From an uncultured Clostridium sp. (GTDB lineage Bacteria > Bacillota > Clostridia > TANB77 > CAG-508), in the NCBI GenBank assembly GCA_900553405.1, contig USDF01000001.1, forward strand, positions 2,567-66,566: 64,000 nt of DNA, written 5' to 3'. Below are positions 5,143 to 50,329 of this stretch, one piece after another (position 1 is the stretch's first letter; every line of letters starts with the position of its first letter). The notes beneath the pieces were generated by a model. The model made no database searches and was not told where the DNA came from. It was given only the letters and a program-made list of their open reading frames with translations. The position numbers and the translations under genes were made by a program.

Positions 5143-5470
5143 TTATGTGTTTTTATTAATAGCCTCTGTTTTAATAGCGTCATGCTCACAAATAATATTA
5201 AAAAAGAGTGCATCAAAAGAGTATAGTTCAATTATTAGAGAATATTTAAATGTAAGAGTAATTGTAGGATATGGAATGATGTTTATATCTACAATACTTA
5301 CAATATTTGCATTTAAAGGTTTAGATTATAAAAATGGCCCAATAATTGAATCTTTAGGATACATATTTATAATGTTTTTAAGTAGAATTTTTCTAAAAGA
5401 AAAAATAACAAAGAAAAAAATAATAGGTAATTCGTTAATACTTTTAGGAATATTAGTATTTTATATTTAA
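5135..5470 (+). CDS. small 4-TM DMT/SMR-like membrane protein (ArnF-like flippase subunit)
   Basis: 111 aa, 4 hydrophobic helices. Paired with the preceding gene like the ArnE/ArnF heterodimer. Confidence 0.55.
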   Translation: MNSYVFLLIASVLIASCSQIILKKSASKEYSSIIREYLNVRVIVGYGMMFISTILTIFAFKGLDYKNGPIIESLGYIFIMFLSRIFLKEKITKKKIIGNSLILLGILVFYI

Positions 5471-5471
5471 A

Positions 5472-5514
5472 AAGGACATTTTGGGACTTACTCACTTTTG
5501 CTCTTTACATAAAA
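5472..5514 (+). repeat. copy A (degenerate) of a dispersed ~42-nt 3'-intergenic hairpin repeat
   Basis: aaggacattttgggacttactcacttttgctctttacataaaa. Related copies at 8083, 37892 and 50116. Confidence 0.6.
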
Positions 5515-5528
5515 CTACAAAGTATCAA

Positions 5529-5561
5529 TGTCAATAGGGATGCTCCTTATTGACATTTTTT
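5529..5561 (+). terminator. rho-independent terminator
   Basis: tgtcaatagggatgctccttattgaca, a 12-bp stem, followed by TTTTTT. Confidence 0.8.
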
Positions 5562-6599: not shown

Positions 6600-8012
6600 A
6601 TGAGAAAAATAAAAACTTTATCAATATTATTTATAGCATGCTTATTAGCTAGTTTAATATTTCCAATGTATGTAAATAAAGTATATGCTGGAATCAAAAA
6701 TGAAGTAACATTAAATTTTAAAGGTGGAACAATTCATGATGGCTATGTAGAATATAGCAAAAAAGCGAAATTACAATTATTCAAAGGAGATGAGTTAGTT
6801 ACTAATATTTCAAATAATATGGTAATTGATTTAAACGAAGCAGAGTACAAGTTTGTAATTGAAGAAATTGAAGATTCAAGTCTTTCTAGTGTTAATACCC
6901 ACATAAGATTAAATATTAATAATTGGTATTACCCAATGACAACAATAGTAGGTGAAGCTAAATCTACATTCAAATTAGAATCAAGTAAATTTAGTGGAAC
7001 ATTAGATGTTAAATTTGTAAGAACCAATATTGCTATTAACACAACAGTTAAAAATGTTTATAATGATATATCATCAAAAGGTGTAATAGATTTGACTAAT
7101 GGTAAAGAATATGTAATAGATTTTTCTAAAACTGATGAATTGACAGAAGGATTAAAATCATTTGCAGATTTAGACAAAACACTATATTATAAGAGAAGCA
7201 ATGATGGTCTATTAGCAACAGACAATGAAAGTGAAGCTGTTATAAAGATTGTTGGAAATAGGTCAGAGAATAAAGCAATATTAACTGCAGTAAATGTTGG
7301 AACTAAAAAAAATGAAGTTTTTAAAGGATTTCATACTCAATATACAGGTTCTAAATTGAGTTTTACTGGCTCAGATGGTGAAATTTTGAATGAAACAAGA
7401 TTTGATTATTATACTAGATGTACTTATGATTACACATTTAAATATGTAAAAGAAGAAGTTAAACCAAAAGAGTATAAAGTTATTGAAGGTGCAAACCAAA
7501 AATACACAATAGATGAATCAAAAAATGCAACATTTAGAATAAATGCAGAATATAATATATTTGAAAATGGTGGAAAAGTATATGTAGATAATACTTTAGT
7601 AGATAATAACAATTATACTTCTAAATCAGGTAGCACAATAATAACTTTAAAAGATGCTTATTTAAAAACATTGTCTGTTGGAGAACATACTTTGAAAGTA
7701 GCTTTTACAGATAGTGGAGAAGCAACAACTAAGTTTGAAATAGCTAAAAAAGTAGAAGAAAATAAAGACAATAACAGCAATAATAACAATAGTAATAAAA
7801 ATGATAATAACAATAATAATAATAATGACAACAGCGATAACAACGATAATATTGATAATACTACTTCAAACACAGAAAACGAAAATAAAGAAGAAATTAT
7901 CTCAAATCCAAAAACTGGAGATAATGTAATGCTATATGTAACAATAGCAAGTGTGTCAATATTAGTTTTAGGAGCAACAACAATGGTTTCTAGAAAGAGA
8001 AAAATGAATTAA
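6600..8012 (+). CDS. cell-wall anchored surface protein with NPKTG (sortase B-type) sorting signal
   Basis: N-terminal signal peptide (MRKIKTLSILFIACLLASLIFPMYVNKVYA). Asn/Asp-rich low-complexity linker. C-terminal NPKTG + hydrophobic stretch + RKRKMN tail. Confidence 0.7.
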   Translation: MRKIKTLSILFIACLLASLIFPMYVNKVYAGIKNEVTLNFKGGTIHDGYVEYSKKAKLQLFKGDELVTNISNNMVIDLNEAEYKFVIEEIEDSSLSSVNTHIRLNINNWYYPMTTIVGEAKSTFKLESSKFSGTLDVKFVRTNIAINTTVKNVYNDISSKGVIDLTNGKEYVIDFSKTDELTEGLKSFADLDKTLYYKRSNDGLLATDNESEAVIKIVGNRSENKAILTAVNVGTKKNEVFKGFHTQYTGSKLSFTGSDGEILNETRFDYYTRCTYDYTFKYVKEEVKPKEYKVIEGANQKYTIDESKNATFRINAEYNIFENGGKVYVDNTLVDNNNYTSKSGSTIITLKDAYLKTLSVGEHTLKVAFTDSGEATTKFEIAKKVEENKDNNSNNNNSNKNDNNNNNNNDNSDNNDNIDNTTSNTENENKEEIISNPKTGDNVMLYVTIASVSILVLGATTMVSRKRKMN

Positions 8013-8037
8013 AATAATAAAAAACATCAATATATAA

Positions 8038-8068
8038 AACAAGGTATATTAAATGCCTTGTTTTTTTA
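8038..8068 (+). terminator. rho-independent terminator
   Basis: acaaggtatattaaatgccttgt followed by a T-run. Confidence 0.7.
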
Positions 8069-8082
8069 TAATATAAATGATA

Positions 8083-8127
8083 TAAATAATGCAAAGGACA
8101 TTTGGGGACGGGTCACATTTGTCCTTT
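8083..8127 (+). repeat. copy B of dispersed 3'-intergenic hairpin repeat
   Basis: aaggacatttggggacgggtcacatttgtcctttgtaaattgaaa. Confidence 0.7.
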
Positions 8128-8346
8128 GTAAATTGAAATATAAAAAATGAAAAATTTTGTTTCATATTATAAAAATACCTTAAATCCTGTGTTATTTAGT
8201 GTTGTTTAGTATCGTTTGACCTTTTGAAAATGAACAAAATAGCATTAAATAATATTAAACATAACTAAACGAAAAAATTAAATTTGAGACTTTTATTCGT
8301 CTTAATTAGTCTCAATAAAAAATAACATATGAAAGGAGTAAAATAA

Positions 8347-9372
8347 ATGAGTAATATAACAATTGGAAATGAAAAAAATATTTTATTTTATAGTGATGAA
8401 AATGGACAAACCAAAGTAGAAGTAATTCTACAAGATGAAAATGTTTGGTTAAATGTAAATGCAATAGCTACTCTTTTTGATGTACAAAGACCTGCTATTG
8501 TAAAGCATATAAATAATATATACAATGATGAAGAATTAAGTAGGAAATCAACTTGTTCCATTTTGGAACAAGTTCAAGTGGAGGGAACTCGAAGTGTTAA
8601 AAGGCAAAAGGAATATTATAATCTAGATATGATTATTTCTATCGGGTTTAGAGTTAATTCTAAAAAAGCAATTAAATTTAGAACTTGGGCAAATAAGATA
8701 ATTAAAGATTATATGATACAAGGTTTTGCACTTGATGATAATAGATTTATGAAATCAAGAAAATCTGATCAAGAATATTTTAAAAGATTACTTGAAAGAA
8801 TAAAATTAATTCGTACTAGTGAGAGAATGTTTTATCAAAAAATTACAGATATCTTTGCTGAGTGTTCTATTGATTATGATAAAAATAGCGATATAGCAAA
8901 AGATTTTTATGCAACTATTCAAAATAAATTTCACTATGCTATTACTGGGAGTACTGCAGCAGAAATTATTTACAACAGAGTTGATAGTCAAAAAGTGAAT
9001 ATGGGATTAACAAATTGGGATAAATCTCCTGATGGAAAAATCTTAAAATCAGATGTTTCTGTTGCTAAAAATTATTTAGATGAAAAAGAAATAAAAAAAC
9101 TAAATAATTTGGTGAACTTATTTTTAGATATTGCAGAAAATAATGCAGAAAGAAATTTATCAATGAGTATGAATGAATGGAAGAATGAAGTAGAAACATC
9201 TTTAAAATTATTTCATTATGATGTATTGCAAGGCAAAGGAAAAATCTCTGCTGAAAAAGCAAAACAAAAAGCAGAAAATGAATATGAAAAATACAAAATT
9301 ATACAAGATAAAAAATTTGTTTCTGATTTTGATAAATTACTAATTGAAACAGAAAAGATAGAAAAGCATTAG
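8347..9372 (+). CDS. RhuM-family protein (virulence-associated / Fic-DOC-related DNA-binding family)
   Basis: 341 aa. N-terminus (ILFYSDENGQTKVEVILQDENVWLNVNAIATLF) recalled as typical of RhuM-family proteins. Confidence 0.55.
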   Translation: MSNITIGNEKNILFYSDENGQTKVEVILQDENVWLNVNAIATLFDVQRPAIVKHINNIYNDEELSRKSTCSILEQVQVEGTRSVKRQKEYYNLDMIISIGFRVNSKKAIKFRTWANKIIKDYMIQGFALDDNRFMKSRKSDQEYFKRLLERIKLIRTSERMFYQKITDIFAECSIDYDKNSDIAKDFYATIQNKFHYAITGSTAAEIIYNRVDSQKVNMGLTNWDKSPDGKILKSDVSVAKNYLDEKEIKKLNNLVNLFLDIAENNAERNLSMSMNEWKNEVETSLKLFHYDVLQGKGKISAEKAKQKAENEYEKYKIIQDKKFVSDFDKLLIETEKIEKH

Positions 9373-9409
9373 AAATAATTACAATATGAATTATAAGAGG
9401 TGAATAAAA

Positions 9410-19885: not shown

Positions 19886-19998
19886 CGCGTGAAGAAGGAC
19901 TTGAACCTTCAACCTTCAGGAAAACAACTTGTGATACCTAGCTAGGATTTTTGAAATATACACAAGTACCTTACGCTCTACCAATTGAGCTACTCACG
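19886..19998 (-). other. aberrant tRNA-like gene (canonical acceptor, D and T arms; ~40-nt insertion in the anticodon region)
   Basis: Minus strand: GCGTGAG-TA-GCTCAATTGGTAGAGC-G-TAAGGT[ACTTGTGTATATTTCAAAAATCCTAGCTAGGTATCACAAGT]TGTTTTCCTGAAGGTTGAAGGTTCAAGTCCTTCTTCACGC. The insert has 7-bp terminal inverted repeats (ACTTGTG/CACAAGT) and an internal palindrome CCTAGCTAGG. Confidence 0.45.
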
Positions 19999-20236
19999 CA
20001 AACCCTTAAATAAAATTGAATTATTTTAATATGTTTATTATTCTAGCATGTTAAAACAAAAAAGTCAACATAATTTTTAAAAAAATTAAAAAATATGCCA
20101 AAAATAGAAAATTTAAATAAAATATTAAATTGAAAACAAAAAAATTAAATAAATCATTATAACTATATAGTAATGAATATAAAATAAAAAAATGAACAAA
20201 ATAGAAATATATAAAATAATGAAAGGTGGTATAAAA

Positions 20237-36052: not shown

Positions 36053-37891
36053 ATGAAAAAAAGAGCAAGAAAAATTATAATAGCATTAGTTTTGTTTGCA
36101 ATTGCATTATTAATACCATTTTCATATGAATGGATAAATAATGTGATATTTATTGCAAGTTATTTAATAGTTGGTTTAGAAATAGTATTAAAAGCAATAA
36201 GAAATATAACAAGAGGAAAAGTATTTGATGAAAATTTTCTTATGGCAATAGCAACTATAGGAGCATTTGCAGTAGGCGAATTTCCAGAAGCAGCAACAGT
36301 TATGATACTTTATCAAATAGGCGAATTGTTCCAAAGTTATGCAGTAGATAAATCAAGAAAATCTATATCAAGTTTAATGGATATTAGACCAGATTATACA
36401 AATGTAAAAAGAGAAAATGAAGTTTTAAAAGTTTCACCAGAAGAAGTAAAAATAGGAGAACTAATCGTAGTAAAACCAGGAGAAAAAATTCCATTAGATG
36501 GAGTTATCGAAGAAGGAAAATCTATGTTAGATACTTCAAGTTTAACAGGGGAATCTATGCCACAAGACGTAAATATAGGAGACAACGTTTTAAGTGGATG
36601 TATAAATAAAAGTGGATTATTAACAATAAAAGTAACAAAAGAATTTGGAGAGTCTACAGTAAGCAAAATACTAGATTTAGTAGAAAATGCAAGTAGTAAA
36701 AAATCAAAATCTGAAAACTTTATTACTAAATTCGCTAAATATTATACTCCAGCTGTAGTAATAATAGCAGTAATTTTAGCTGTTGTACCACCAATTATTA
36801 TAAAAGATGCCGTATTTACAGATTGGTTATATAGAGCTTTAACATTTTTAGTAGTATCATGCCCATGTGCACTTGTAATATCAATACCACTAGGATTCTT
36901 TGGAGGAATAGGTGGAGCTTCTAAAAAAGGAATATTAGTAAAAGGAAGTAATTACCTAGAAGCTTTAGCACAAACAGAAATAGTTGTATTTGATAAAACA
37001 GGTACACTAACAGAGGGAATTTTTGAAGTACAAAAAATAGAAACAGTAGATATAAAAAAAGAAGAACTTTTAGAATTAGCAGCATATGCAGAAAATCATT
37101 CAAACCATCCAATATCTTTATCTGTAAAAAATGCATATAAAAATAAAATAGATATGAAAAAAATTACAGAAACAGAGGAAATAGCAGGACTAGGAGTTAA
37201 AGCAATAATAGACGGAAAACAAGTGCTAGTTGGAAACGATAAATTAATGGAACAAGCAAAAATTAGTTATGAAAAATCAACAGATATAGGAACTATATTA
37301 TATGTTGCAATAGATAACAAATTTGCAGGATATATCGTAATTGCAGATAAAATAAAGAATGATTCTAAAAAAACAATAGAAATTTTAAAAGGAAATAACA
37401 TTAAAAAAACAGTTATGCTTACAGGAGACAAAAAACAAGTAGGCGAGCATGTAGCTGATATTTTAGGATTAGACGAAGTTTATACAGAACTACTACCAGA
37501 CGGAAAAGTAAAAAAAGTAGAAGAATTATTAAAACAAAAAAGCGAAAAAGGAAAACTTGTATTTGTTGGTGATGGAATAAATGATGCACCAGTATTAGCT
37601 CTAGCAGATATAGGAATTGCAATGGGGGGACTTGGTTCAGATGCTGCAATAGAGGCTGCAGATGTTGTAATAATGACAGACGAACCATCTAAAATAGGAA
37701 ATGCAATACAAATTTCTAAAAAAACAATGAGAATAGTTCGTGAAAATATAATTTTTTCATTAGTAGTTAAAATAGCCGTATTAATTTTAAGTGCATGTGG
37801 ATTATCTACAATGTGGGAAGCAGTATTCGCAGATGTAGGAGTATCTATTATAGCAATATTAAATTCATTAAGAGTATTAAGAAATAAATAA
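36053..37891 (+). CDS. cadA: P1B-type heavy-metal (Cd/Zn) translocating ATPase
   Basis: CPC motif (VSCPCALVIS), DKTGTLT phosphorylation site, GDGINDAP hinge. Confidence 0.9.
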   Translation: MKKRARKIIIALVLFAIALLIPFSYEWINNVIFIASYLIVGLEIVLKAIRNITRGKVFDENFLMAIATIGAFAVGEFPEAATVMILYQIGELFQSYAVDKSRKSISSLMDIRPDYTNVKRENEVLKVSPEEVKIGELIVVKPGEKIPLDGVIEEGKSMLDTSSLTGESMPQDVNIGDNVLSGCINKSGLLTIKVTKEFGESTVSKILDLVENASSKKSKSENFITKFAKYYTPAVVIIAVILAVVPPIIIKDAVFTDWLYRALTFLVVSCPCALVISIPLGFFGGIGGASKKGILVKGSNYLEALAQTEIVVFDKTGTLTEGIFEVQKIETVDIKKEELLELAAYAENHSNHPISLSVKNAYKNKIDMKKITETEEIAGLGVKAIIDGKQVLVGNDKLMEQAKISYEKSTDIGTILYVAIDNKFAGYIVIADKIKNDSKKTIEILKGNNIKKTVMLTGDKKQVGEHVADILGLDEVYTELLPDGKVKKVEELLKQKSEKGKLVFVGDGINDAPVLALADIGIAMGGLGSDAAIEAADVVIMTDEPSKIGNAIQISKKTMRIVRENIIFSLVVKIAVLILSACGLSTMWEAVFADVGVSIIAILNSLRVLRNK

Positions 37892-37932
37892 AGGACATTT
37901 GGGAACGGGTCACTTTTGTCCTATACATAAAA
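37892..37932 (+). repeat. copy C of dispersed 3'-intergenic hairpin repeat
   Basis: aggacatttgggaacgggtcacttttgtcctatacataaaa, immediately after the cadA stop. Confidence 0.7.
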
Positions 37933-38052
37933 TAGACGAATATAACTTCGCCTATTTTAGTGTTTATTGTAAACTATTAGAGATGGACCATTTTAGTTTA
38001 GTAAATTTATTATATTTTGCCCTCAAAACTAAAACGCCCCGTCACTAATAGT

Positions 38053-38658
38053 TTAGTTTAATAAATTTGCAATTAAGTCAATTACTGTGTTAGTCATTAC
38101 CGTATAGTCTAGTTCACTGTGTTTATGATATACAATTTCATGGCATAAGTCATCAATCAAATTAATTGCAATGTGAACTTTTTCATACAAGTTAGCTGTA
38201 TCAAATCCACTATTTGCTAGTATATTATAAAGTGTTTTTGTCATATACATTTCATGTTCTTGAAAGAAACTAGCTATTTCTTTATCTGAATGAACCATAG
38301 CTGTAATTTCTTCGTGAGCTGATTGTGAAAGTTTATGATTTTCTACAAATTTATCTATCATTTCTTTTAATATTTCTTTTATATTAGCTTTAGAAACAGT
38401 TTTGCCCTCAGTTATAGTAAGCATAGGGTAGAAAATATCACCTGCGTATCTTTTAATTCCTTCAAGTAATATATCATGTTTATCATTAAAATATTGATAC
38501 ACAATACCAGTAGAAACACCAGCAGCTTTTGCTATTTGTGCTGTGTTTGTATTGTAGTATCCTTTATTACATATAAGCTCAAAACCAGCTTCTATAATTT
38601 TTTCTTTTTTCTCAATAGAACGTTTTTGTATAGGTTCTCTAATATCGTTAGATGTCAT
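38053..38658 (-). CDS. TetR/AcrR family transcriptional regulator
   Basis: N-terminal HTH (YYNTNTAQIAKAAGVSTGIVYQYF). Divergent from the ABC transporter genes. Confidence 0.85.
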   Translation of the reverse strand: MTSNDIREPIQKRSIEKKEKIIEAGFELICNKGYYNTNTAQIAKAAGVSTGIVYQYFNDKHDILLEGIKRYAGDIFYPMLTITEGKTVSKANIKEILKEMIDKFVENHKLSQSAHEEITAMVHSDKEIASFFQEHEMYMTKTLYNILANSGFDTANLYEKVHIAINLIDDLCHEIVYHKHSELDYTVMTNTVIDLIANLLN

Positions 38659-38908
38659 GTTATCAGTCCCTTCTTTAAAAATGATATAGCTAAATTATAA
38701 GTATTAAGCAATATCAGTATATTTAATATACATTAAAAAAGTATGTATAAAACTAAGTTCTCTAAAATTAAATTAACTATATTATAAAGGCAACAAAATA
38801 AAAAGTCAAGAAATATGAAAAATATTTCATATTCTATTGACTTTTGAAATAATAATATTTATAATGTCTAACAGAATATGAAATAAATTTCAAGTTAAGG
38901 AGGAGACT

Positions 38909-39619
38909 ATGGAGAAAATAGTTGAAATAAAAAATGTAAGTAAAATTTACAAAACAGGAGAAAAAGAATTTAAAGCACTAGATAACATTGATTTATCTAT
39001 AAACAAAGGAGAATTTGTTGTAATACTTGGACCATCAGGAGCAGGAAAATCAACATTATTAAATTTAATAGGTGGAATGGATACACCAACAAATGGAAGC
39101 ATAAAAATTGATGGAGAAGATATCTCAAAATATAATGAGAACAAATTGAGCGAGTATAGAGCAGAGAATATCGGATTTATCTTTCAATTTTACAACATAT
39201 TGCCAACACTTACTGTATTGGAAAATGTTGAATTAATTAAAGATGTTGTAAAAAACGGAAACGATAGCAAAGAAGCTATAAAAGCTGTTGGATTAGAAAA
39301 TCACATGAATAAATTTCCAAACCAATTATCTGGAGGTGAACAACAAAGAGTTTCTATAGCAAGAGCTATAGCTAAAAATCCAAAATTACTATTATGCGAT
39401 GAACCAACAGGTGCACTAGATTCAAAAACAGGTGTCGAGGTTTTAAAACTATTACGCAAACAATGTGATGGAAACAATGGAGCAAATACAGTAATTATAG
39501 TAACTCACAATAGCTTATTTGCAGATATTGCAGACACAGTAATAAGAGTAAAAAACGGAAAAATAGAAAGTGTAACTGCAAATGAAAATCCTAAAAAGAT
39601 TGACGAGGTGAAATGGTAA
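38909..39619 (+). CDS. ABC transporter ATP-binding protein (MacB/YknY-like)
   Basis: Walker A GPSGAGKST, signature LSGGEQQRVSIARA, Walker B LLLCDEPTGALD. Confidence 0.9.
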   Translation: MEKIVEIKNVSKIYKTGEKEFKALDNIDLSINKGEFVVILGPSGAGKSTLLNLIGGMDTPTNGSIKIDGEDISKYNENKLSEYRAENIGFIFQFYNILPTLTVLENVELIKDVVKNGNDSKEAIKAVGLENHMNKFPNQLSGGEQQRVSIARAIAKNPKLLLCDEPTGALDSKTGVEVLKLLRKQCDGNNGANTVIIVTHNSLFADIADTVIRVKNGKIESVTANENPKKIDEVKW

Positions 39620-42036
39620 TGGCTAAATTAAACAAAAAAATATTAAGAGATATAAAACAAAACAAAATGCAATTTTTTAATGTTTTTATTATGATATTTT
39701 TAGGAGTATTTGTTTTTGCAGGAGTACATTCATATATGGATGGTATGCAAATAAGTGGCGATAATTACTATGAATCAAACAATTTACAAGACTTATGGCT
39801 AACAGGTGAAAACTTTAATAAAGAAGATTTAGACAAAGTAAAAAATATCGAAAATGTTAAAAACGCAGAAAGATTATTAAGCATAAGAACAGACTTAGAA
39901 AATGAAAAAGAAAAAGACGTACAACTAGAAACAATCTTTATTGAATCAAATGAAATATCAAAAATGTACATTGCAGATGGAGAAGAATTTTCTAAAGAAA
40001 AAGATGGTGTATGGTTTGATAGCTATTTAGCAAAATATTTAGACCTAAAAGTTGGAGATGAAATTACTTTTAAATATAAAGACTACACAATGACAGAAAA
40101 AATAAGAGGTCTAGTAAACACACCAGACCATGTGTATTTTGTAAAAGATGAAACAGCAATTTTCCCAACACATAAGGATTATGGTTACATATATCTTTCT
40201 ATAAATGAATTTCCAAAACAATATATTTATGATGAGATAAAAAATAAAATTGTGGCAGAAAATACTATAATGGAAAACATGAAAGATAGCATAACAAATG
40301 AAACAATAGAAAAAATGATTCCAGACTTTAACATAGAAGACTATTATATATTTAATCAAGTAATTGTAGATGTAGATGATACAAGCAAAATAGAAGAAAC
40401 AAAAAGAAATATAGAAAATGATATTAAAGCTGCAATAGCAGTTACAGATAGAGAAGCAAGCGCATCTTGCGAAACATATAATTCAGAAATAGAAGAGGGA
40501 GCAACATATTCAGAAGTATTTACATTTTTATTCTTATTTATAGCAATATTATCTGTTGTAACAACAATGAACAGATTTGTAAAAAAACAAAGAACACAAA
40601 TAGGAACATTAAAAGCATTAGGATTTAAAAATAGCAAAATAATAAGACACTATGTAGGCTATGGATTTTATATAAGTATAGCAGCTTCAATACTTGCACT
40701 ATTAGTTGGAAACTTTGGATTAGGCAAATTCTTCATGAACATGGAAATGTCATATTTTGAAGTTCCAGTTTATAGTACAATATTATTACCTACAGTATAT
40801 ATACTTGCAGTATTTGTAGTAATAATAGTAACTATTGCAACATATTTCTCTTGCAGAAAAATCTTAAAAGAACCAGCAGTAGAAGCATTAAGAATAGAAA
40901 TACCAAAAGTAAAGAAAACAAATTTTGACTTAACAACAAAAGGAATATTCAAAAAAGCCTCAATTTCTACAAGATGGAATTTAAGAGATATAGGAAGAAA
41001 TAAAGGAAGAAGCATAATGGGTATAGTAGGAATAATAGGCTGTACAATGCTTTTAGTATGTGCATTTGGCTTACTAGACACAATGAATTCTTACTTAGAC
41101 TGGCAATTTGACAAAATAAATAATTTCGAATACAAACTAGGATTATCAAGTAATTATACTGATGAAGAGCTAGAAGATGCAAAAAACAAATACGGAAATG
41201 CTACAAGTCAAACTCTAGCAATAGAAGTAAAAAATGGAGATAAAAAAGAAACAAATACTTTAACAATAAATGACGCAAAAGATTATTTAAAATATACAGA
41301 CCATAACAAAAACTATATAGACTTAAAAGATGATGGAATATATATTACAGAAAAATTATCAGAAAAATACGACTTAAAAGTTGGAGACGAAATATCTTGG
41401 CATGCATTTGGAAACAATAATTGGTATACATGTAAAATAGTAGGAATAAATCGTGACCCACAAAATCAAAATTTAAATATGACTAGAAAATATTATGAGT
41501 CTTTAGGACTTGAATATAAAGCAGATTCGTTATATACTAATTATGACTTAAGTGACACAAAAACAATCGCAGGAGTAGAAACAATACAAAGCATTTCAAA
41601 CCTAAGAGAAGGTATAGAAAGCATGTTAGAAACTACAAAAACAATGGTTGTAATATTAATAGTAGTGTCAGTAATTTTAGCATATGTAATTATTTACAAT
41701 TTAGGAATACTATCATTTGCAGAAAAACAATATCAATTTGCAACATTAAAAGTATTAGGATTTAAAGATAAGCAAATAAAGAAAATATTTGTAAAACAAA
41801 ATATATGGCTTTCTATAGTAGGTATTCTAGCAGGATTACCACTAGGATATACAATGATAGACTATATATTTAAAGCAGCACTTGGAGAAAACTATGACTT
41901 TCCAGCAATGATAAGTGTACCTTCATATTTGTATGCAGCAATAGGAAGCTTTGTAGTAGCACTACTTGTAAATAAAACACTATCTAGAAAAGTTAAAACA
42001 ATTGATATGGTAAGTAGTTTAAAAGGAAACGAATAA
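39619..42036 (+). CDS. ABC transporter permease, FtsX/MacB-type with two 4-TM modules and large extracellular domains
   Basis: ~805 aa, duplicated FtsX architecture. The ORF-track start at 39613 overlaps the upstream stop, so ATG 39619 is also possible. Confidence 0.8.
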   Translation: MAKLNKKILRDIKQNKMQFFNVFIMIFLGVFVFAGVHSYMDGMQISGDNYYESNNLQDLWLTGENFNKEDLDKVKNIENVKNAERLLSIRTDLENEKEKDVQLETIFIESNEISKMYIADGEEFSKEKDGVWFDSYLAKYLDLKVGDEITFKYKDYTMTEKIRGLVNTPDHVYFVKDETAIFPTHKDYGYIYLSINEFPKQYIYDEIKNKIVAENTIMENMKDSITNETIEKMIPDFNIEDYYIFNQVIVDVDDTSKIEETKRNIENDIKAAIAVTDREASASCETYNSEIEEGATYSEVFTFLFLFIAILSVVTTMNRFVKKQRTQIGTLKALGFKNSKIIRHYVGYGFYISIAASILALLVGNFGLGKFFMNMEMSYFEVPVYSTILLPTVYILAVFVVIIVTIATYFSCRKILKEPAVEALRIEIPKVKKTNFDLTTKGIFKKASISTRWNLRDIGRNKGRSIMGIVGIIGCTMLLVCAFGLLDTMNSYLDWQFDKINNFEYKLGLSSNYTDEELEDAKNKYGNATSQTLAIEVKNGDKKETNTLTINDAKDYLKYTDHNKNYIDLKDDGIYITEKLSEKYDLKVGDEISWHAFGNNNWYTCKIVGINRDPQNQNLNMTRKYYESLGLEYKADSLYTNYDLSDTKTIAGVETIQSISNLREGIESMLETTKTMVVILIVVSVILAYVIIYNLGILSFAEKQYQFATLKVLGFKDKQIKKIFVKQNIWLSIVGILAGLPLGYTMIDYIFKAALGENYDFPAMISVPSYLYAAIGSFVVALLVNKTLSRKVKTIDMVSSLKGNE

Positions 42037-42043
42037 CGTGGCA

Positions 42044-42060
42044 AAAGGGACGCCCTTTTT
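42044..42060 (+). terminator. rho-independent terminator
   Basis: aaagggacgccctttttt. Confidence 0.7.
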
Positions 42061-42148
42061 TACCACAAAAATTACTAAAAGAGACGTCCTTTTGATGACA
42101 AAAAAATTGATACGAGTTATAATGCTTTAAAAAGAGGAAAAAGAAAAA

Positions 42149-43954
42149 ATGGGAAATATAGTTTTATTAGATGATCTAACAATTAACAAAATAGCTGCAG
42201 GTGAAGTTATAGAAAGACCTGCAAACGTAGTAAAGGAACTTGTAGAGAACTCACTAGATGCAGGGGCAACACATATAATAGTAGAAATAAAAAATGGTGG
42301 TAAAACTTTAATAAAAGTAACCGACAATGGAAAAGGCATATCTAAAGATGATATGCCTATTTCCATTGAAAGACATGCAACTAGCAAAATAAGAAAAGTA
42401 GAAGATTTAGAAAACACATATACAATGGGATTTAGAGGTGAAGCATTAGCAAGTATTTCTGCAATATCAGAAATGACAATGATATCTAAAACTCTAGAGG
42501 AAACAACAGGATATAAAATTCAAACAACAGCAGGAAATGTAATAGATATAGAAGAATGCGGAGCACAAACTGGTACAACTATAATAGTAGAAAAATTATT
42601 TTTTAATACACCTGTAAGATATAAATTTTTAAAACAAGATGCTACTGAAAATAAATATATAAAAGAATGGGTTCATAAAGTAGCACTTGCAAATCCACAA
42701 GTGTCTTTCAAATTAGTAAGTGATGGAAAACAAATATTTTTTTCTAATGGAAATGGAAAAATAGAAGATATTATTTATTTATTATATGGAAAAGAAATAA
42801 AAGAAAATTTGGTAAAAGTAGACTACGAAGAAAATAATATAAAAATCACTGGAGTAGTAGGAAACACAATGGTAGCAAGAGATACAAGAAAGGACCAAAT
42901 AATATTTTTGAATAAAAGGCATATACAAAATGTAGCTTTAATGAGCAGTGCAGACCAAGCTTTTAAAGGTGCTACAGGAATTGGAAAATATGGATTTTAT
43001 ATATTAAATTTAGAAATGTCAGCAAATTATTATGATGTAAATGTGCATCCTACAAAGATAGAAGTAAGATTTAATGAAGAACATGAAATAACTAGAATTT
43101 TGTATCATGCAATAAAAAATTCAATATTAAATTCAGAGTTTTTAGGGAATAATCAAAATGAAAATAAAGAGAAATATATTGAAAATGAGTTTGAATTTTT
43201 GACAACAAATAAAATAGAAAGCAATGGAGAATTCAATATAACTAGTAAAATTGATTTGCCTAAAACAGATGTGACATCTTTAAAAATAGAAGAAAATACA
43301 GAAAAAAACATAGAAAACAGCGATTTACCAAAAATAGAAAATCAAAATATTGAACTTAGAAAAAGAGAAGAAAAGAGAAAAGTAGAATATAAGTATATAG
43401 GAATTTTGTTTAGAACATACATAATAGTAGAAATAGCAGATGAAATATACTTAATAGATCAACATGCAGCACATGAAAGAGTTTTATATGAACAAATAAA
43501 AGAAAATTATAAGAATCATATAGAACAAAATAGTCAATTAACATTAATACCAGAAGTAGTAAACTTGACACATAAAGAAATGGAATTCGTAAAAGAAAAT
43601 ATGAAACTATTTAGAGATATAGGGTTTGACATAGAAGAATTTGGAGAAAATACATTAAAGATAAATGGAATACCAGATTTAGAATATAGAGCAAAAACAA
43701 ACAATATATTTTTAGATATATTAGATGAAATGTTAAGTAATGAAAGAACATCTGTAAAAGACGTAGAAGAAAGATTTATAGCAACAGTAGCATGTAAGGC
43801 AGCAGTAAAGGCAAATATGGATTTAAAAGAAAAAGAGGTAGATGATTTAATACAAAGTTTACTATCATTAAATAATCCATACACATGTCCACACGGAAGA
43901 CCAACGACAATAAAAATTTCTAAAGAATATCTTGAAGAGCATTTAGGAAAATAG
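42149..43954 (+). CDS. mutL: DNA mismatch repair protein MutL
   Basis: GHKL ATPase N-terminus (AAGEVIERPANVVKELVENSLDAGAT), C-terminal dimerisation domain. No mutS in this window. Confidence 0.9.
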   Translation: MGNIVLLDDLTINKIAAGEVIERPANVVKELVENSLDAGATHIIVEIKNGGKTLIKVTDNGKGISKDDMPISIERHATSKIRKVEDLENTYTMGFRGEALASISAISEMTMISKTLEETTGYKIQTTAGNVIDIEECGAQTGTTIIVEKLFFNTPVRYKFLKQDATENKYIKEWVHKVALANPQVSFKLVSDGKQIFFSNGNGKIEDIIYLLYGKEIKENLVKVDYEENNIKITGVVGNTMVARDTRKDQIIFLNKRHIQNVALMSSADQAFKGATGIGKYGFYILNLEMSANYYDVNVHPTKIEVRFNEEHEITRILYHAIKNSILNSEFLGNNQNENKEKYIENEFEFLTTNKIESNGEFNITSKIDLPKTDVTSLKIEENTEKNIENSDLPKIENQNIELRKREEKRKVEYKYIGILFRTYIIVEIADEIYLIDQHAAHERVLYEQIKENYKNHIEQNSQLTLIPEVVNLTHKEMEFVKENMKLFRDIGFDIEEFGENTLKINGIPDLEYRAKTNNIFLDILDEMLSNERTSVKDVEERFIATVACKAAVKANMDLKEKEVDDLIQSLLSLNNPYTCPHGRPTTIKISKEYLEEHLGK

Positions 43955-48714: not shown

Positions 48715-50115
48715 ATGGCAAAGACTCAAGTTGAAGAGATAAATAGAAATATTTATGATATAAAAAATAAAGACGAATATGACTTTAAAATAAAAAAAGG
48801 TTTAACACCAGAAATTATAGAAGAAATATCAAAACAAAAAAATGATCCAGACTGGATGAGAGAATTTAGACTAAAAGCATTAGAAGTATATAACAAATTA
48901 GAAATGCCAACATGGGGACCAGATATTTCAGAATTAAATATGGATGAAATTGCAACATATGTACGTCCAAAAACAAAATTAAATAGTTCATGGGAAGATG
49001 TACCAGAAGATATAAAAAATACTTTTGATAAATTAGGAATTCCAGAAGCAGAAAAGACATCTTTAGCAGGCGTTGGAGCTCAATATGATTCAGAGGTAGT
49101 TTACCATAGCATGAAAGAAGACCTTATAAAACAAGGTGTAATTTATACAGATATGGAAACAGCAGTAAGAGAATATCCGGATTTAGTAAAAGAACATTTT
49201 ATGAAATGTGTACCAGTTACAGACCACAAATTTGTAGCACTTCATGGAGCAGTATGGTCAGGAGGGTCTTTTGTATATGTTCCAAAGGGAGTAAAAGTAG
49301 ACATACCACTTCAATCATATTTTAGACTAAACTCACCAGAATCAGGACAATTCGAACACACTTTAATAATAGTAGATGAAGGAGCAAGTCTACACTTTAT
49401 AGAAGGATGTAGCGCACCAAAATACAACAAGGTAAATCTACATGCTGGATGTGTTGAGTTATATGTAAAAGATAATGCTTATTTAAGATATTCTACAATA
49501 GAAAACTGGTCAAAAAATATGCTTAACTTAAATACAAAAAAAGCAATTGTAGGAAAAAATGCACAAGTAGACTGGGTAACAGGTTCATTTGGTTCAAAAA
49601 TATCAATGCTTTATCCAATGAGTATATTAAATGGAGAAAACGCTAAAACAGAATACACAGGAATTTCATTTGCAGGAGGCGGACAAAACCTAGACAATGG
49701 ATTTAAAGTAGTTCACAACGCGCCAAATACATCAAGTGTAGTAAATGCAAAATCAATATCAAAAAATGGTGGAAAGTGCACATATAGGAGTTTAGTAAGA
49801 ATAAACGAAAACGCAGTAAACTCTAAATCTTCTGTATCGTGTGAATCACTTATGTTAGATGATATATCAATATCAGACACAATACCAGTAAATGATATAA
49901 GAACAGATGAAGTAGAATTTTCACACGAAGCAAAAATAGGAAAAATAAGTGATAAAACAATATTCTACCTAATGAGTAGAGGATTATCAGAAGAAGACGC
50001 AAAAGCAATGATAGTAAGAGGATTTGCATATCCAATATCAAAAGAATTACCAGTTGAATATGCAGTAGAAATGAACAATTTAATTAACTTAGAATTAGAA
50101 GGAGCAATTGGATAA
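48715..50115 (+). CDS. sufB: Fe-S cluster assembly protein SufB
   Basis: 466 aa, canonical SufB C-terminal beta-helix region. Confidence 0.9.
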   Translation: MAKTQVEEINRNIYDIKNKDEYDFKIKKGLTPEIIEEISKQKNDPDWMREFRLKALEVYNKLEMPTWGPDISELNMDEIATYVRPKTKLNSSWEDVPEDIKNTFDKLGIPEAEKTSLAGVGAQYDSEVVYHSMKEDLIKQGVIYTDMETAVREYPDLVKEHFMKCVPVTDHKFVALHGAVWSGGSFVYVPKGVKVDIPLQSYFRLNSPESGQFEHTLIIVDEGASLHFIEGCSAPKYNKVNLHAGCVELYVKDNAYLRYSTIENWSKNMLNLNTKKAIVGKNAQVDWVTGSFGSKISMLYPMSILNGENAKTEYTGISFAGGGQNLDNGFKVVHNAPNTSSVVNAKSISKNGGKCTYRSLVRINENAVNSKSSVSCESLMLDDISISDTIPVNDIRTDEVEFSHEAKIGKISDKTIFYLMSRGLSEEDAKAMIVRGFAYPISKELPVEYAVEMNNLINLELEGAIG

Positions 50116-50157
50116 CGGACATTTGGGGACGGGTCACTTTTGTCCTTTACATAAAAA
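50116..50157 (+). repeat. copy D of dispersed 3'-intergenic hairpin repeat (closest to consensus)
   Basis: cggacatttggggacgggtcacttttgtcctttacataaaaa, directly after the sufB stop. Confidence 0.7.
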
Positions 50158-50329
50158 TATAGAAACTTTTGATAAAAAAGCTTAAGATTGTTAAAATATT
50201 AAAAGAATATGATATTTCAAAAATGGGGGCTAAAAAGGACAGCCAATATGAGAAAATTAAAAAAAAGGGGTGTCCCTAATTGAAAAAATTTTCGAAAAAG
50301 GGGCGTCCCTAATAGGAAAGGAAAAGAAA

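What the first reader, a model, noticed from the sequence alone, without database searches (positions are those of the whole stretch)
50116..50157. Dispersed ~42-nt hairpin element with a conserved loop, always just after a stop codon and in the same orientation (4 copies in 64 kb)
Copies sit at 5472-5514 (after the ArnF-like gene), 8083-8127 (after the surface protein), 37892-37932 (immediately after the cadA stop) and 50116-50157 (immediately after the sufB stop). Consensus: (A)AGGACATTTGGGGACGGGTCACTTTTGTCCTTTACATAAAA. A 7-bp stem AAGGACA/TGTCCTT encloses a ~19-nt loop. The loop TTTGGGGACGGGTCACTTT is conserved better than the stem (copy A has a degenerate stem but keeps loop fragments). 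That argues for a protein- or RNA-recognition function (3'-UTR stability element, RNA-binding-protein site, or a small mobile REP/MITE-like unit) rather than a simple terminator. Three copies are followed by separate terminator hairpins.
Basis: seen in the sequence. Interest (0 to 1): 0.55.

Follow-up and report, generated by a model that had tools for sequence, protein, structure and literature searches.

The report
REP-like hairpin repeat of a tyrosine transposase
The four hairpins are copies of a small, probably mobile DNA repeat of the REP type, which in related gut Clostridia flanks a single-copy tyrosine transposase gene; the kind is known, but this family is undescribed and sits unusually tightly against stop codons.

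Summary
The four copies are real: three are intact, one is decayed, and none is expected by chance.

The unit is 41 nt: AAAGGACATTTGGGGACGGGTCACTTTTGTCCTTTACATAA. Its conservation stops sharply at both ends. It forms an 8-9 bp stem around a 19-nt loop.

About 110 near-identical copies occur in about eight related uncultured gut Clostridia genomes. In five of those genomes, two inverted copies flank a 257-aa gene. That gene has the HUH and Tyr motifs of a Y1 transposase. Its only sequence match in the PDB, and its best fold match, is E. coli TnpA-REP (RAYT).

Relatives of this gene at 30-50% identity are flanked by hairpins with quite different stems. Their loops keep the same GGGGAC(G/A)G core. 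That core is close to the GGGGWSAS motif published for TIRYT/TIRtron elements.

So the element is a REP-like repeat of a RAYT/TIRYT system. It is not a terminator, and it matches no Rfam family.

The stop-codon adjacency is real: 23 of 41 independent loci start within 3 nt of a stop, and the TAA often forms the stem base. It is not universal, because about a third of loci carry the element antisense. Its cause is unresolved.

Within the family, the loop is no better conserved than the stem. The loop outlasts the stem only between lineages.

Verdict: a new member of a known kind, of moderate interest.

The parts
50114..50154 (+). REP-like copy D (AACGGACATTTGGGGACGGGTCACTTTTGTCCTTTACATAA). The core starts 1 nt after the sufB stop (50113-50115). 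It lies between sufB and a sufD-like gene.
   Evidence: 58.2 bits, E = 2.3e-17. Gene identities.
37890..37930 (+). REP-like copy C (AAAGGACATTTGGGAACGGGTCACTTTTGTCCTATACATAA). Its first two A's are the last two bases of the stop codon (37889-37891) of a P-type ATPase gene. The next gene is convergent.
   Evidence: 53.0 bits. Gene identities. Orthologous copies are in L024, L043 and L051.
8093..8133 (+). REP-like copy B, with the variant tail TTTGTAAAT. It lies 83 nt after the stop of gene 6600..8012 and downstream of a terminator-like hairpin at 8036-8064.
   Evidence: (50.0 bits). Orthologous copies are in L074 and L039.
5471..5512 (+). Decayed REP-like copy A (AAAGGACATTTTGGGACTTACTCACTTTTGCTCTTTACATAA, with a 1-nt insertion and several substitutions). 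It starts directly after the stop (5468-5470) of an EamA-family gene. A terminator-like hairpin follows at 5527-5557.
   Evidence: (20.2 bits, E = 1.7e-5). Intact orthologous copies are in L074, L026 and L057.

Best explanation
The element is a REP-like repeat: a short, non-autonomous hairpin-forming DNA repeat. It belongs to a RAYT/TIRYT system, meaning a domesticated single-locus Y1 (HUH) tyrosine transposase plus the repeats that flank its gene.

**Shown**
- A 41-nt unit with sharp boundaries is dispersed at tens of copies per genome in a small clade of uncultured gut Clostridia.
- It occurs as singlets, as tail-to-tail inverted doublets, and as the ends of a composite hairpin of about 290 nt.
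- Two inverted copies flank the transposase gene.
- Diverged homologues of that gene are flanked by hairpins with different stems but the same GGGGAC(G/A)G loop core.

**Inferred**
- The transposase binds the hairpin on single-stranded DNA, as IS608 TnpA and E. coli TnpA-REP do.
- It reads the conserved loop and cleaves nearby. This spreads copies and keeps them uniform.
- Copies survive mainly just after genes, because they are tolerated there.
- Once transcribed, the hairpin can act as a 3'-end structure. In E. coli, REPs stabilise upstream mRNA, and REPs within 15 nt of a stop codon disturb translation termination.

**Unresolved**
Most sense copies abut or overlap the TAA stop. This could come from target choice (insertion 3' of (T)AA), from selection, or from both.
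For: **The repeat**
- Sharp boundaries at -3 and +38, with at least 94% identity at core positions +1 to +32 across 109 copies.
- 113 copies in 85 loci plus the window, almost all from about eight related MAGs.

**The transposase gene**
- A 257-aa gene is flanked by inverted copies in L060, L085, L010 and L069: copy, 73 nt, gene, 12 nt, inverted copy (coordinates from L060). L014 holds the gene's 3' part and the downstream copy.
- Pfam Y1_Tnp, E = 7.8e-10.
- NCBIfam REP_Tyr_transpos scores 68.9 bits against 17.6 bits for IS200.
- The HxH and Y-I-H-x-N-P-V motifs are invariant.
- The only PDB sequence hit of the family profile is 4ER8, TnpA-REP.
- The AF2 model (pLDDT 87) matches 4ER8 best, followed by IS608 and ISDra2 TnpA.
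- The order fhs, transposase gene, groES is kept at 49% protein identity, which suggests vertical inheritance.

**Diverged homologues**
- 27 of 52 homologue loci carry GGGAC[AG]G inverted on both flanks.
- 49% of 126 gene-proximal motifs sit inside a perfect stem of at least 6 bp. The figure is 4.1% when the 3' halves are swapped between loci and 4.8% at random positions.
- About 50 different stems enclose the motif.

**Genomic context**
- Only 1 of 78 copies lies between divergent genes, and all 18 inverted pairs are tail-to-tail.
- 38 copies lie within 3 nt of a stop, against 2.0 expected. After collapsing orthologues this is 23 of 41 loci.

**Turnover**
- Decayed copy A.
- A 5'-truncated copy in L036.
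- Contigs encoding a 100% identical SufB either carry the copy (window, L173) or lack it (L172, L174).

**Literature**
- TIRYT genes are flanked by inverted repeats that share GGGGWSAS, and these form moderately abundant families in some species. GTAG REPs often supply the stop codon of the flanking ORF (PMC3733652).
- RAYT Group 1 occurs in Clostridia (PMC5581495).
- E. coli REPs within 15 nt of a stop stall ribosomes (as summarised in PMC12306157).
Against: - The window itself has no transposase gene. The link rests on close relatives at 90-97% nucleotide identity.
- No clean empty versus filled site was found, so transposition, the exact element ends and the target are not demonstrated.
- The NCBIfam RAYT score is below that model's cut-off of 80 bits.
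- The element lacks the GT(A/G)G head that defines classical REPs.
- Copy numbers are modest, at most 29 exact 18-mer matches per MAG.
- The extreme stop-codon adjacency does not follow from the transposase model alone.
- No binding, cleavage or RNA data exist.
Confidence: 0.8

Rival explanations
1. It is mainly a host-selected RNA element. Transcribed at the end of genes, the hairpin blocks 3'-5' exonucleases or interferes with the terminating ribosome. An RNA-binding protein reads the loop. The transposase link is only historical.
For: - Strong sense bias and stop-codon adjacency: 40 sense versus 19 antisense loci, and 23 of 41 sense loci within 3 nt of a stop.
- Copy D lies inside the sufB-sufD pair.
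- Orthologous copies persist across species.
- E. coli gives a precedent for REPs near stop codons (PMC12306157).
Against: - About a third of loci carry the element antisense to both neighbouring genes.
- The loop core co-varies with the presence of the transposase gene across very distant lineages.
- Every position of the 41 nt is conserved, not just a structure. Within the family there is no compensatory change.
- This reading is not exclusive of the main explanation.
Confidence: 0.25
2. It is a binding or uptake site read as double-stranded DNA by a host protein, for example a nucleoid protein or a DNA-uptake signal. That would explain why the sequence is kept exactly.
For: - Near-identity of all copies within and between species.
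- The transposase carries a C-terminal helical extension that may bind DNA. Weak HTH hits occur in some family members.
Against: - Stems differ completely between lineages yet stay complementary. That points to a folded single strand rather than a duplex site.
- There is a tight link to a Y1 transposase, whose solved relatives bind hairpin DNA.
- No candidate host protein is known.
Confidence: 0.05
3. It is an unusual rho-independent terminator shared by many genes.
For: It lies downstream of genes. Tail-to-tail doublets between convergent genes form very stable long hairpins, at -64 to -132 kcal/mol.
Against: - Single copies have a 19-nt loop and are followed by CATAA, not a T-run.
- The terminator scan does not call them. 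It finds separate terminator-like hairpins next to copies A and B.
- Copy D lies between sufB and sufD.
- Antisense copies sit directly upstream of ribosome-binding sites.
Confidence: 0.03

Closest known systems
TIRtron / TIRYT elements (Di Nocera et al. 2013, PMC3733652). These are probably TnpA-REP subclass 2.1 of Quentin et al. 2018 (PMC6006769), which corresponds to RAYT Group 1 of Bertels et al. 2017 (PMC5581495).
   Same: - A RAYT-like Y1 transposase of about 250 aa with a C-terminal extension.
- The gene is flanked by inverted repeats carrying a GGGGWSAS-type motif. Here the motif is GGGGACGG; in relatives it is GGGGACAG.
- The flanking repeat also forms a moderately abundant dispersed family, with dimers.
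- Group 1 has been reported in Clostridia.
   Different: - The published descriptions treat the flanks as terminal inverted repeats. They report no REP-like secondary structures next to subclass 2.1 genes. Here the motif sits in the loop of a hairpin whose stem differs between lineages.
- None of the four REP/RAYT papers I term-searched reports a Firmicutes/Clostridia repeat family.
- Position 7 of the motif is G, not A, in this family.
- Assignment to subclass 2.1 / Group 1 was not tested against reference sequences.
Classical REP/BIME elements with TnpA-REP (RAYT) in E. coli and other Proteobacteria (Nunvar 2010, PMC2817692; PDB 4ER8).
   Same: - A short extragenic palindrome with many copies.
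- It lies between tandem and convergent genes and almost never between divergent ones.
- The transposase gene is flanked by two inverted copies and sits at a single syntenic locus.
- Copies are often close to, or overlap, the stop codon of the upstream gene.
- 4ER8 is the best fold match and the only PDB sequence match.
   Different: - There is no GT(A/G)G head.
- The stem is AT-rich and 8-9 bp, with a large conserved 19-nt loop, rather than a GC-rich bulged stem with a small loop.
- The conserved determinant is in the loop, not at the 5' foot.
- The protein is longer and scores below the NCBIfam RAYT cut-off.
REPINs of Pseudomonas (Bertels and Rainey 2011, PMC3116915).
   Same: In relatives, many copies are inverted doublets that fold into one long hairpin. 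One version of about 290 nt has a conserved spacer of about 200 nt and recurs at many loci.
   Different: - All four window copies are singlets.
- Doublets are exclusively tail-to-tail.
- The spacer ranges from 47 to about 260 nt.
Ends of IS200/IS605 insertion sequences (IS608, ISDra2).
   Same: A Y1 HUH transposase fold, and recognition of subterminal hairpins on single-stranded DNA. The recognition mode is from my own knowledge; the fold match is.
   Different: - The gene is not multi-copy and sits at a conserved chromosomal position.
- The hairpins are dispersed without the gene.
- The IS200 model scores only 17.6 bits.

Membership tests
REP / RAYT system in the broad sense (REPtron) | A short extragenic imperfect palindrome able to form a stem-loop | tested here: met
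   An 8-9 bp stem and a 19-nt loop. Folding z-scores are -3.1 (DNA) and -2.1 (RNA). Only 6 of 113 copies overlap a long ORF.
REP / RAYT system in the broad sense (REPtron) | Many dispersed copies per genome | tested here: met
   Four copies in 64 kb. Up to 29 exact 18-mer matches in one incomplete MAG. 68 independent loci. This is modest next to the more than 100 copies typical of proteobacterial REPs.
REP / RAYT system in the broad sense (REPtron) | The transposase gene is flanked by two copies in inverted orientation | tested here: met
   Seen in full in L060, L085, L010 and L069, with a partial view in L014, and in L091. The window has no such gene, so this is shown for close relatives only.
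REP / RAYT system in the broad sense (REPtron) | A Y1 transposase with HUH and catalytic Tyr motifs, closer to TnpA-REP than to IS200 TnpA | tested here: met
   Caveat: the NCBIfam score of 68.9 bits is below the equivalog cut-off of 80.
Classical GTAG (or CGTC) REP | A conserved GT(A/G)G or CGTC tetranucleotide at one end of a GC-rich palindrome with a short loop | tested here: not met
   The consensus is AAAGGACA...TGTCCTTTACATAA. There is no GTAG or CGTC tag, the stem is AT-rich and the loop is 19 nt.
TIRtron / TIRYT | The flanking inverted repeats share the motif GGGGWSAS | tested here: met
   This family has GGGGACGG (7 of 8 positions). Many homologue loci have GGGGACAG (8 of 8). 27 of 52 loci carry GGGAC[AG]G inverted on both flanks.
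TIRtron / TIRYT (subclass 2.1) | A C-terminal helix-turn-helix extension (Bac_DnaA_C, HTH_23 or HTH_28 type) | tested here: inconclusive
   Residues from about 150 to 254 are all-helical in the model. Only scattered weak HTH hits appear in single family members. No fold search of the C-terminal part alone was done.
TIRtron / TIRYT (subclass 2.1 / RAYT Group 1) | Clusters with reference members of the subclass | not tested
REPIN | Two inverted REPs plus a spacer that fold into one hairpin, acting as the replicating unit | tested here: inconclusive
   18 tail-to-tail pairs in relatives fold at -64 to -132 kcal/mol. None is in the window, and most copies are singlets.
Rho-independent terminator | A GC-rich stem, a loop of 3-8 nt and a following T-run | tested here: not met
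   None of the four window copies is called by the terminator scan. The tail is TTTACATAA.
Curated RNA families (Rfam 15) | A match at the gathering threshold | tested here: not met
   Only a tRNA-like hit elsewhere in the window. The composite element gives only spurious plant microRNA-precursor hits.

The most novel reading that the evidence does not exclude
The window's repeat may be one family of a large, so far unrecognised REP superfamily. It would be the counterpart of GTAG and CGTC REPs for RAYT Group 1 / TIRYT transposases. In it, the conserved recognition motif GGGGAC(G/A)G(T/G)TC lies in the hairpin loop, much as a nick site lies in the origin hairpin of rolling-circle Rep proteins. 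The stem is free to vary between lineages. The superfamily would be common in uncultured low-GC gut Firmicutes, where it reaches up to one copy per about 2 kb (L094). In this lineage the repeat has additionally become coupled to stop codons, which suggests a role in, or targeting by, the end of translation or of the gene.
Probability: 0.4. Interest if true: 0.6.

Novelty: new member of a known kind. Interest (0 to 1): 0.4.

Why it matters
REP/RAYT systems have been studied almost only in Proteobacteria. For the largest RAYT group (Group 1, subclass 2.1), the literature reports no associated hairpin repeats.

This window and its relatives show such repeats in uncultured gut Clostridia. They also suggest a simple rule: a variable stem and a conserved GGGGAC(G/A)G loop. 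That rule can be tested directly with a purified protein and oligonucleotides.

Practical consequences:
- These repeats break metagenome assemblies, since several contigs end inside the composite element.
- They mark rearrangement junctions.
- They place a stable hairpin on the stop codon of housekeeping genes such as sufB and a P-type ATPase gene. This may affect mRNA decay or translation termination.

Tried and rejected
- **Known RNA families:** Rfam at gathering threshold on the whole window gave no family for the repeat. The composite element gave only spurious microRNA-precursor hits.
- **Target-site duplication:** copies whose 5' flank is not TAA still end in TAA, so there is no duplication (inspection).
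- **Clean empty versus filled sites:** flank-pair BLAST found only orthologous filled sites, a 5'-truncated copy and rearranged regions. The sufB alleles with and without the repeat also differ downstream, so the element ends could not be read off.
- **A fifth, decayed copy at about 38010-38050 (-):** suspected by eye because L024 and L043 have an intact copy there. The profile search did not support it.
- **Covariation within the family:** there is none beyond chance. Copies are simply identical, and a few have longer stems.
- **G-T versus A-C mismatch asymmetry, as a clue to the functional strand:** the counts are too small and are confounded by mutation bias.
- **Single-sequence PDB search with the transposase:** nothing found. 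The profile was needed.
- **Pfam search for a C-terminal HTH:** inconclusive.
- **Clustering loci by downstream flanks:** misleading, because doublet partners and the 200-nt unit link unrelated loci. It was redone with upstream flanks only.
- **Alternatives considered and dropped:** integron attC sites, CRISPR repeats, DDE-type MITEs and DNA uptake sequences. Reasons: housekeeping gene context, no arrays, no duplications, and the link to a Y1 transposase.

Full report
**1. The observation**

The core GGACATTTGGGGACGGGTCACTTTTGTCC occurs three times in the window with at most one mismatch, at 8096, 37893 and 50117, all on the + strand. None is expected by chance. A profile built from the family finds a fourth, decayed copy at 5469-5513 and nothing else significant.

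Reading the sequence and the ORF list gives the spacing to the upstream stop:
- Copies A, C and D begin 3, 1 and 1 nt after the stop codons of an EamA-family gene, a P-type ATPase gene and sufB.
- Copy B lies 83 nt after its gene, beyond a terminator-like hairpin at 8036-8064.

The window is 27% G+C and almost all its genes are on the + strand. 'Same orientation' therefore cannot be judged from the window alone.

**2. The family**

One scan of 185,579 species genomes with CATTTGGGRACGGGTCAC returned 85 stretches. Nearly all come from about eight uncultured gut 'Clostridia', 'Clostridium' or 'Lachnospiraceae' MAGs, with up to 29 matches in one MAG. Seven single hits in unrelated phyla look like chance. 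The window is 90-97% identical to several of these contigs.

Together with the window there are 113 copies. Aligned, they show a 41-nt unit, AAAGGACATTTGGGGACGGGTCACTTTTGTCCTTTACATAA. Core positions +1 to +32 are at least 94% conserved. Conservation falls to background at -4 and at +39. The strand folds into a stem of up to 9 bp, TAAAGGACA/TGTCCTTTA, around a 19-nt loop.

Within the family, stem and loop are equally conserved. An arms-only search, which does not depend on the loop used for the scan, gives about 2% loop divergence in 34 unselected copies. There is no compensatory variation within the family.

**3. Genomic context**

Of 78 copies with both neighbouring genes known:
- 36 lie between tandem genes in sense orientation;
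- 22 lie between tandem genes in antisense orientation;
- 19 lie between convergent genes;
- 1 lies between divergent genes.

All 18 inverted pairs are tail-to-tail.

Among 71 sense copies, 47 start within 3 nt of the stop codon, and the commonest spacing is 1 nt (TAA-A-GGACA). If placement within the spacer were uniform, 2.0 of 55 would be expected; 38 are observed.

After collapsing orthologous copies there are 68 independent loci. Of these, 40 are sense and 19 antisense. Of 41 sense loci, 23 are within 3 nt of the stop.

Antisense copies often sit directly upstream of a ribosome-binding site or form the second arm of a doublet.

**4. What it belongs to**

In L060, a 257-aa gene lies between two inverted copies: copy, 73 nt, gene, 12 nt, inverted copy. 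The same gene with the same flanks is in L085, L010 and L069. L014 holds the gene's 3' part and the downstream copy.

Evidence on the protein:
- It matches Pfam Y1_Tnp.
- It scores 68.9 bits on NCBIfam 'REP-associated tyrosine transposase' against 17.6 bits on the IS200 model. The 68.9 is below the curated cut-off of 80.
- An alignment of 19 homologues keeps HxH and Y-I-H-x-N-P-V invariant.
- The profile's only PDB hit is 4ER8, E. coli TnpA-REP.
- An AlphaFold model (pLDDT 87) matches 4ER8 best, then the IS608 and ISDra2 transposases.

The window has no such gene.

At 49% protein identity the gene still lies between fhs and groES. It therefore behaves like a vertically inherited chromosomal gene, as described for RAYTs (PMC5581495).

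**5. The wider family gives the structural evidence**

In L086 the flanking and dispersed repeat is CGCGAACTA-TTTGGGACGGGGTCATT-TAGTTCGCG. The stem is entirely different and the loop is nearly the same.

Among 85 loci encoding homologues at 28-78% identity:
- 27 of the 52 with enough flank carry GGGAC[AG]G inverted on both sides of the gene.
- 49% of 126 distinct gene-proximal motifs are enclosed by a perfect stem of at least 6 bp. The figure is 4.1% when the 3' halves are exchanged between loci and 4.8% at random positions.
- About 50 different stems enclose a loop with the consensus GGGGACGGTTCT.

This is covariation between lineages. It shows that the hairpin is the conserved object and the loop is the constant part.

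Some lineages carry many copies. L094 has at least 9 in 20 kb. Stop-codon adjacency is much weaker in these other lineages, with 5 of 73 copies within 3 nt. The adjacency is therefore a property of this particular family, whose stem begins with TAAAGG.

**6. Comparison with what is known**

- Nunvar et al. defined RAYTs by the inverted REPs that flank them, and REPs by a GT(A/G)G head (PMC2817692). This element has no such head.
- Di Nocera et al. described RAYT-like 'TIRYT' genes flanked by inverted repeats that share GGGGWSAS, with moderately abundant repeat families in a few species. They also noted that GTAG REPs often supply the stop codon of the flanking ORF (PMC3733652).
- Quentin et al. 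equate TIRYTs with their subclass 2.1. These are long proteins with a C-terminal HTH, corresponding to Group 1 of Bertels et al., which occurs in Clostridia (PMC5581495). They state that no REP-like structures were found next to these genes (PMC6006769).

The present family fits the TIRYT description:
- Motif GGGGACGG here, and GGGGACAG in relatives.
- A protein of about 250 aa with a helical C-terminal part.

It adds that the motif lies in a hairpin loop. Assignment to subclass 2.1 is inferred, not tested.

A library search for TIRYT, TIRtron and Group 1 RAYT found only these papers and one on cyanobacteria.

**7. Mechanism**

Shown: the association, the hairpin, the dispersal, the context bias and the turnover. 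The evidence for turnover is:
- decayed copy A;
- a truncated copy in L036;
- contigs encoding an identical SufB with the repeat (window, L173) and without it (L172, L174).

Inferred from solved relatives: the transposase binds the folded single strand, reads the loop and cleaves nearby. No clean empty site was found, so the element's exact ends and its target remain unknown.

The stop-codon coupling may come from two sources.
- One is insertion 3' of (T)AA. TAA is so frequent in these spacers that this alone seems insufficient; that is my estimate from base composition, not a computed result.
- The other is selection: for a harmless position, or for an RNA-level effect like that reported for E. 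coli REPs within 15 nt of a stop (PMC12306157).

Copy D sits between sufB and a sufD-like gene. This fits an intra-operon hairpin rather than a terminator.

**8. Verdict**

The finding is real and is explained as a REP-like repeat of a RAYT/TIRYT system. It is a new member of a known kind. It has two features worth following up: the loop-borne recognition motif and the stop-codon embedding.

Noticed in passing
window 19886-19999 (-): A tRNA-like gene (Rfam tRNA, 47.7 bits) with canonical acceptor, D and T arms. In place of the 7-nt anticodon loop it has 48 nt containing a 7-bp stem (ACTTGTG/CACAAGT). ARAGORN calls nothing here. It lies on the strand opposite to nearly all genes in the window.
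   Followed up: partly
L024:3572-3769; also L043, L025, L036 (two copies), L047, L067, L080, L029 and several contig ends (L001, L078, L011, L017, L054, L055, L051): A repeated unit of about 200 nt, itself an imperfect palindrome. It sits between tail-to-tail REP copies and makes a composite hairpin of about 290 nt (-105 to -132 kcal/mol). It occurs in either orientation. Many contigs end inside it. It is absent from the window. Rfam gives only spurious microRNA-precursor hits.
   Followed up: partly
L063:4999-6450 (also L008, L076, L084): A YhcG/DUF1016 PDDEXK-nuclease gene (349 aa) lies between two direct REP copies that share extended flanks (...CCGACAAGGACA ... ACATAACAATAAG...). This may be a larger repeated or mobile unit carrying the hairpin.
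   Followed up: no
window about 8135-9400 and about 37950-42130: REP copies mark the edges of segments that differ between relatives. A RhuM/Bro-N family gene (8347..9372) follows copy B but is absent in L074 and L039, where uvrB follows instead. The segment from about 38.0 to 42.1 kb is absent in L051, where the ATPase gene plus its REP directly abuts the orthologue of 42149..43954.
   Followed up: partly
L094 (Ga0137297_10005), whole 20.6-kb locus: A different lineage-specific family, GGGTGTTTTT-GGGGACAGACCTT-AAAAACACCC, occurs at least 9 times in 20 kb around a 43%-identical transposase homologue. Several copies lie 5-8 nt after stop codons. L125 and L139 also carry multiple copies of their own versions.
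   Followed up: no
L171-L174 versus window 50116-50270: Contigs encoding a 100% identical SufB carry at least three different sufB-sufD spacers: with the REP, without it, and with a small antisense ORF of about 60 aa. The spacer turns over faster than the genes.
   Followed up: partly
window 50225-50290: Downstream of copy D the spacer holds two further short GGACA / TGTCC-containing palindromes (AAAAAGGACAGCC... and GGGGTGTCCC). L173 has an extra repeat of the second. Their relation to the REP is unclear.
   Followed up: no
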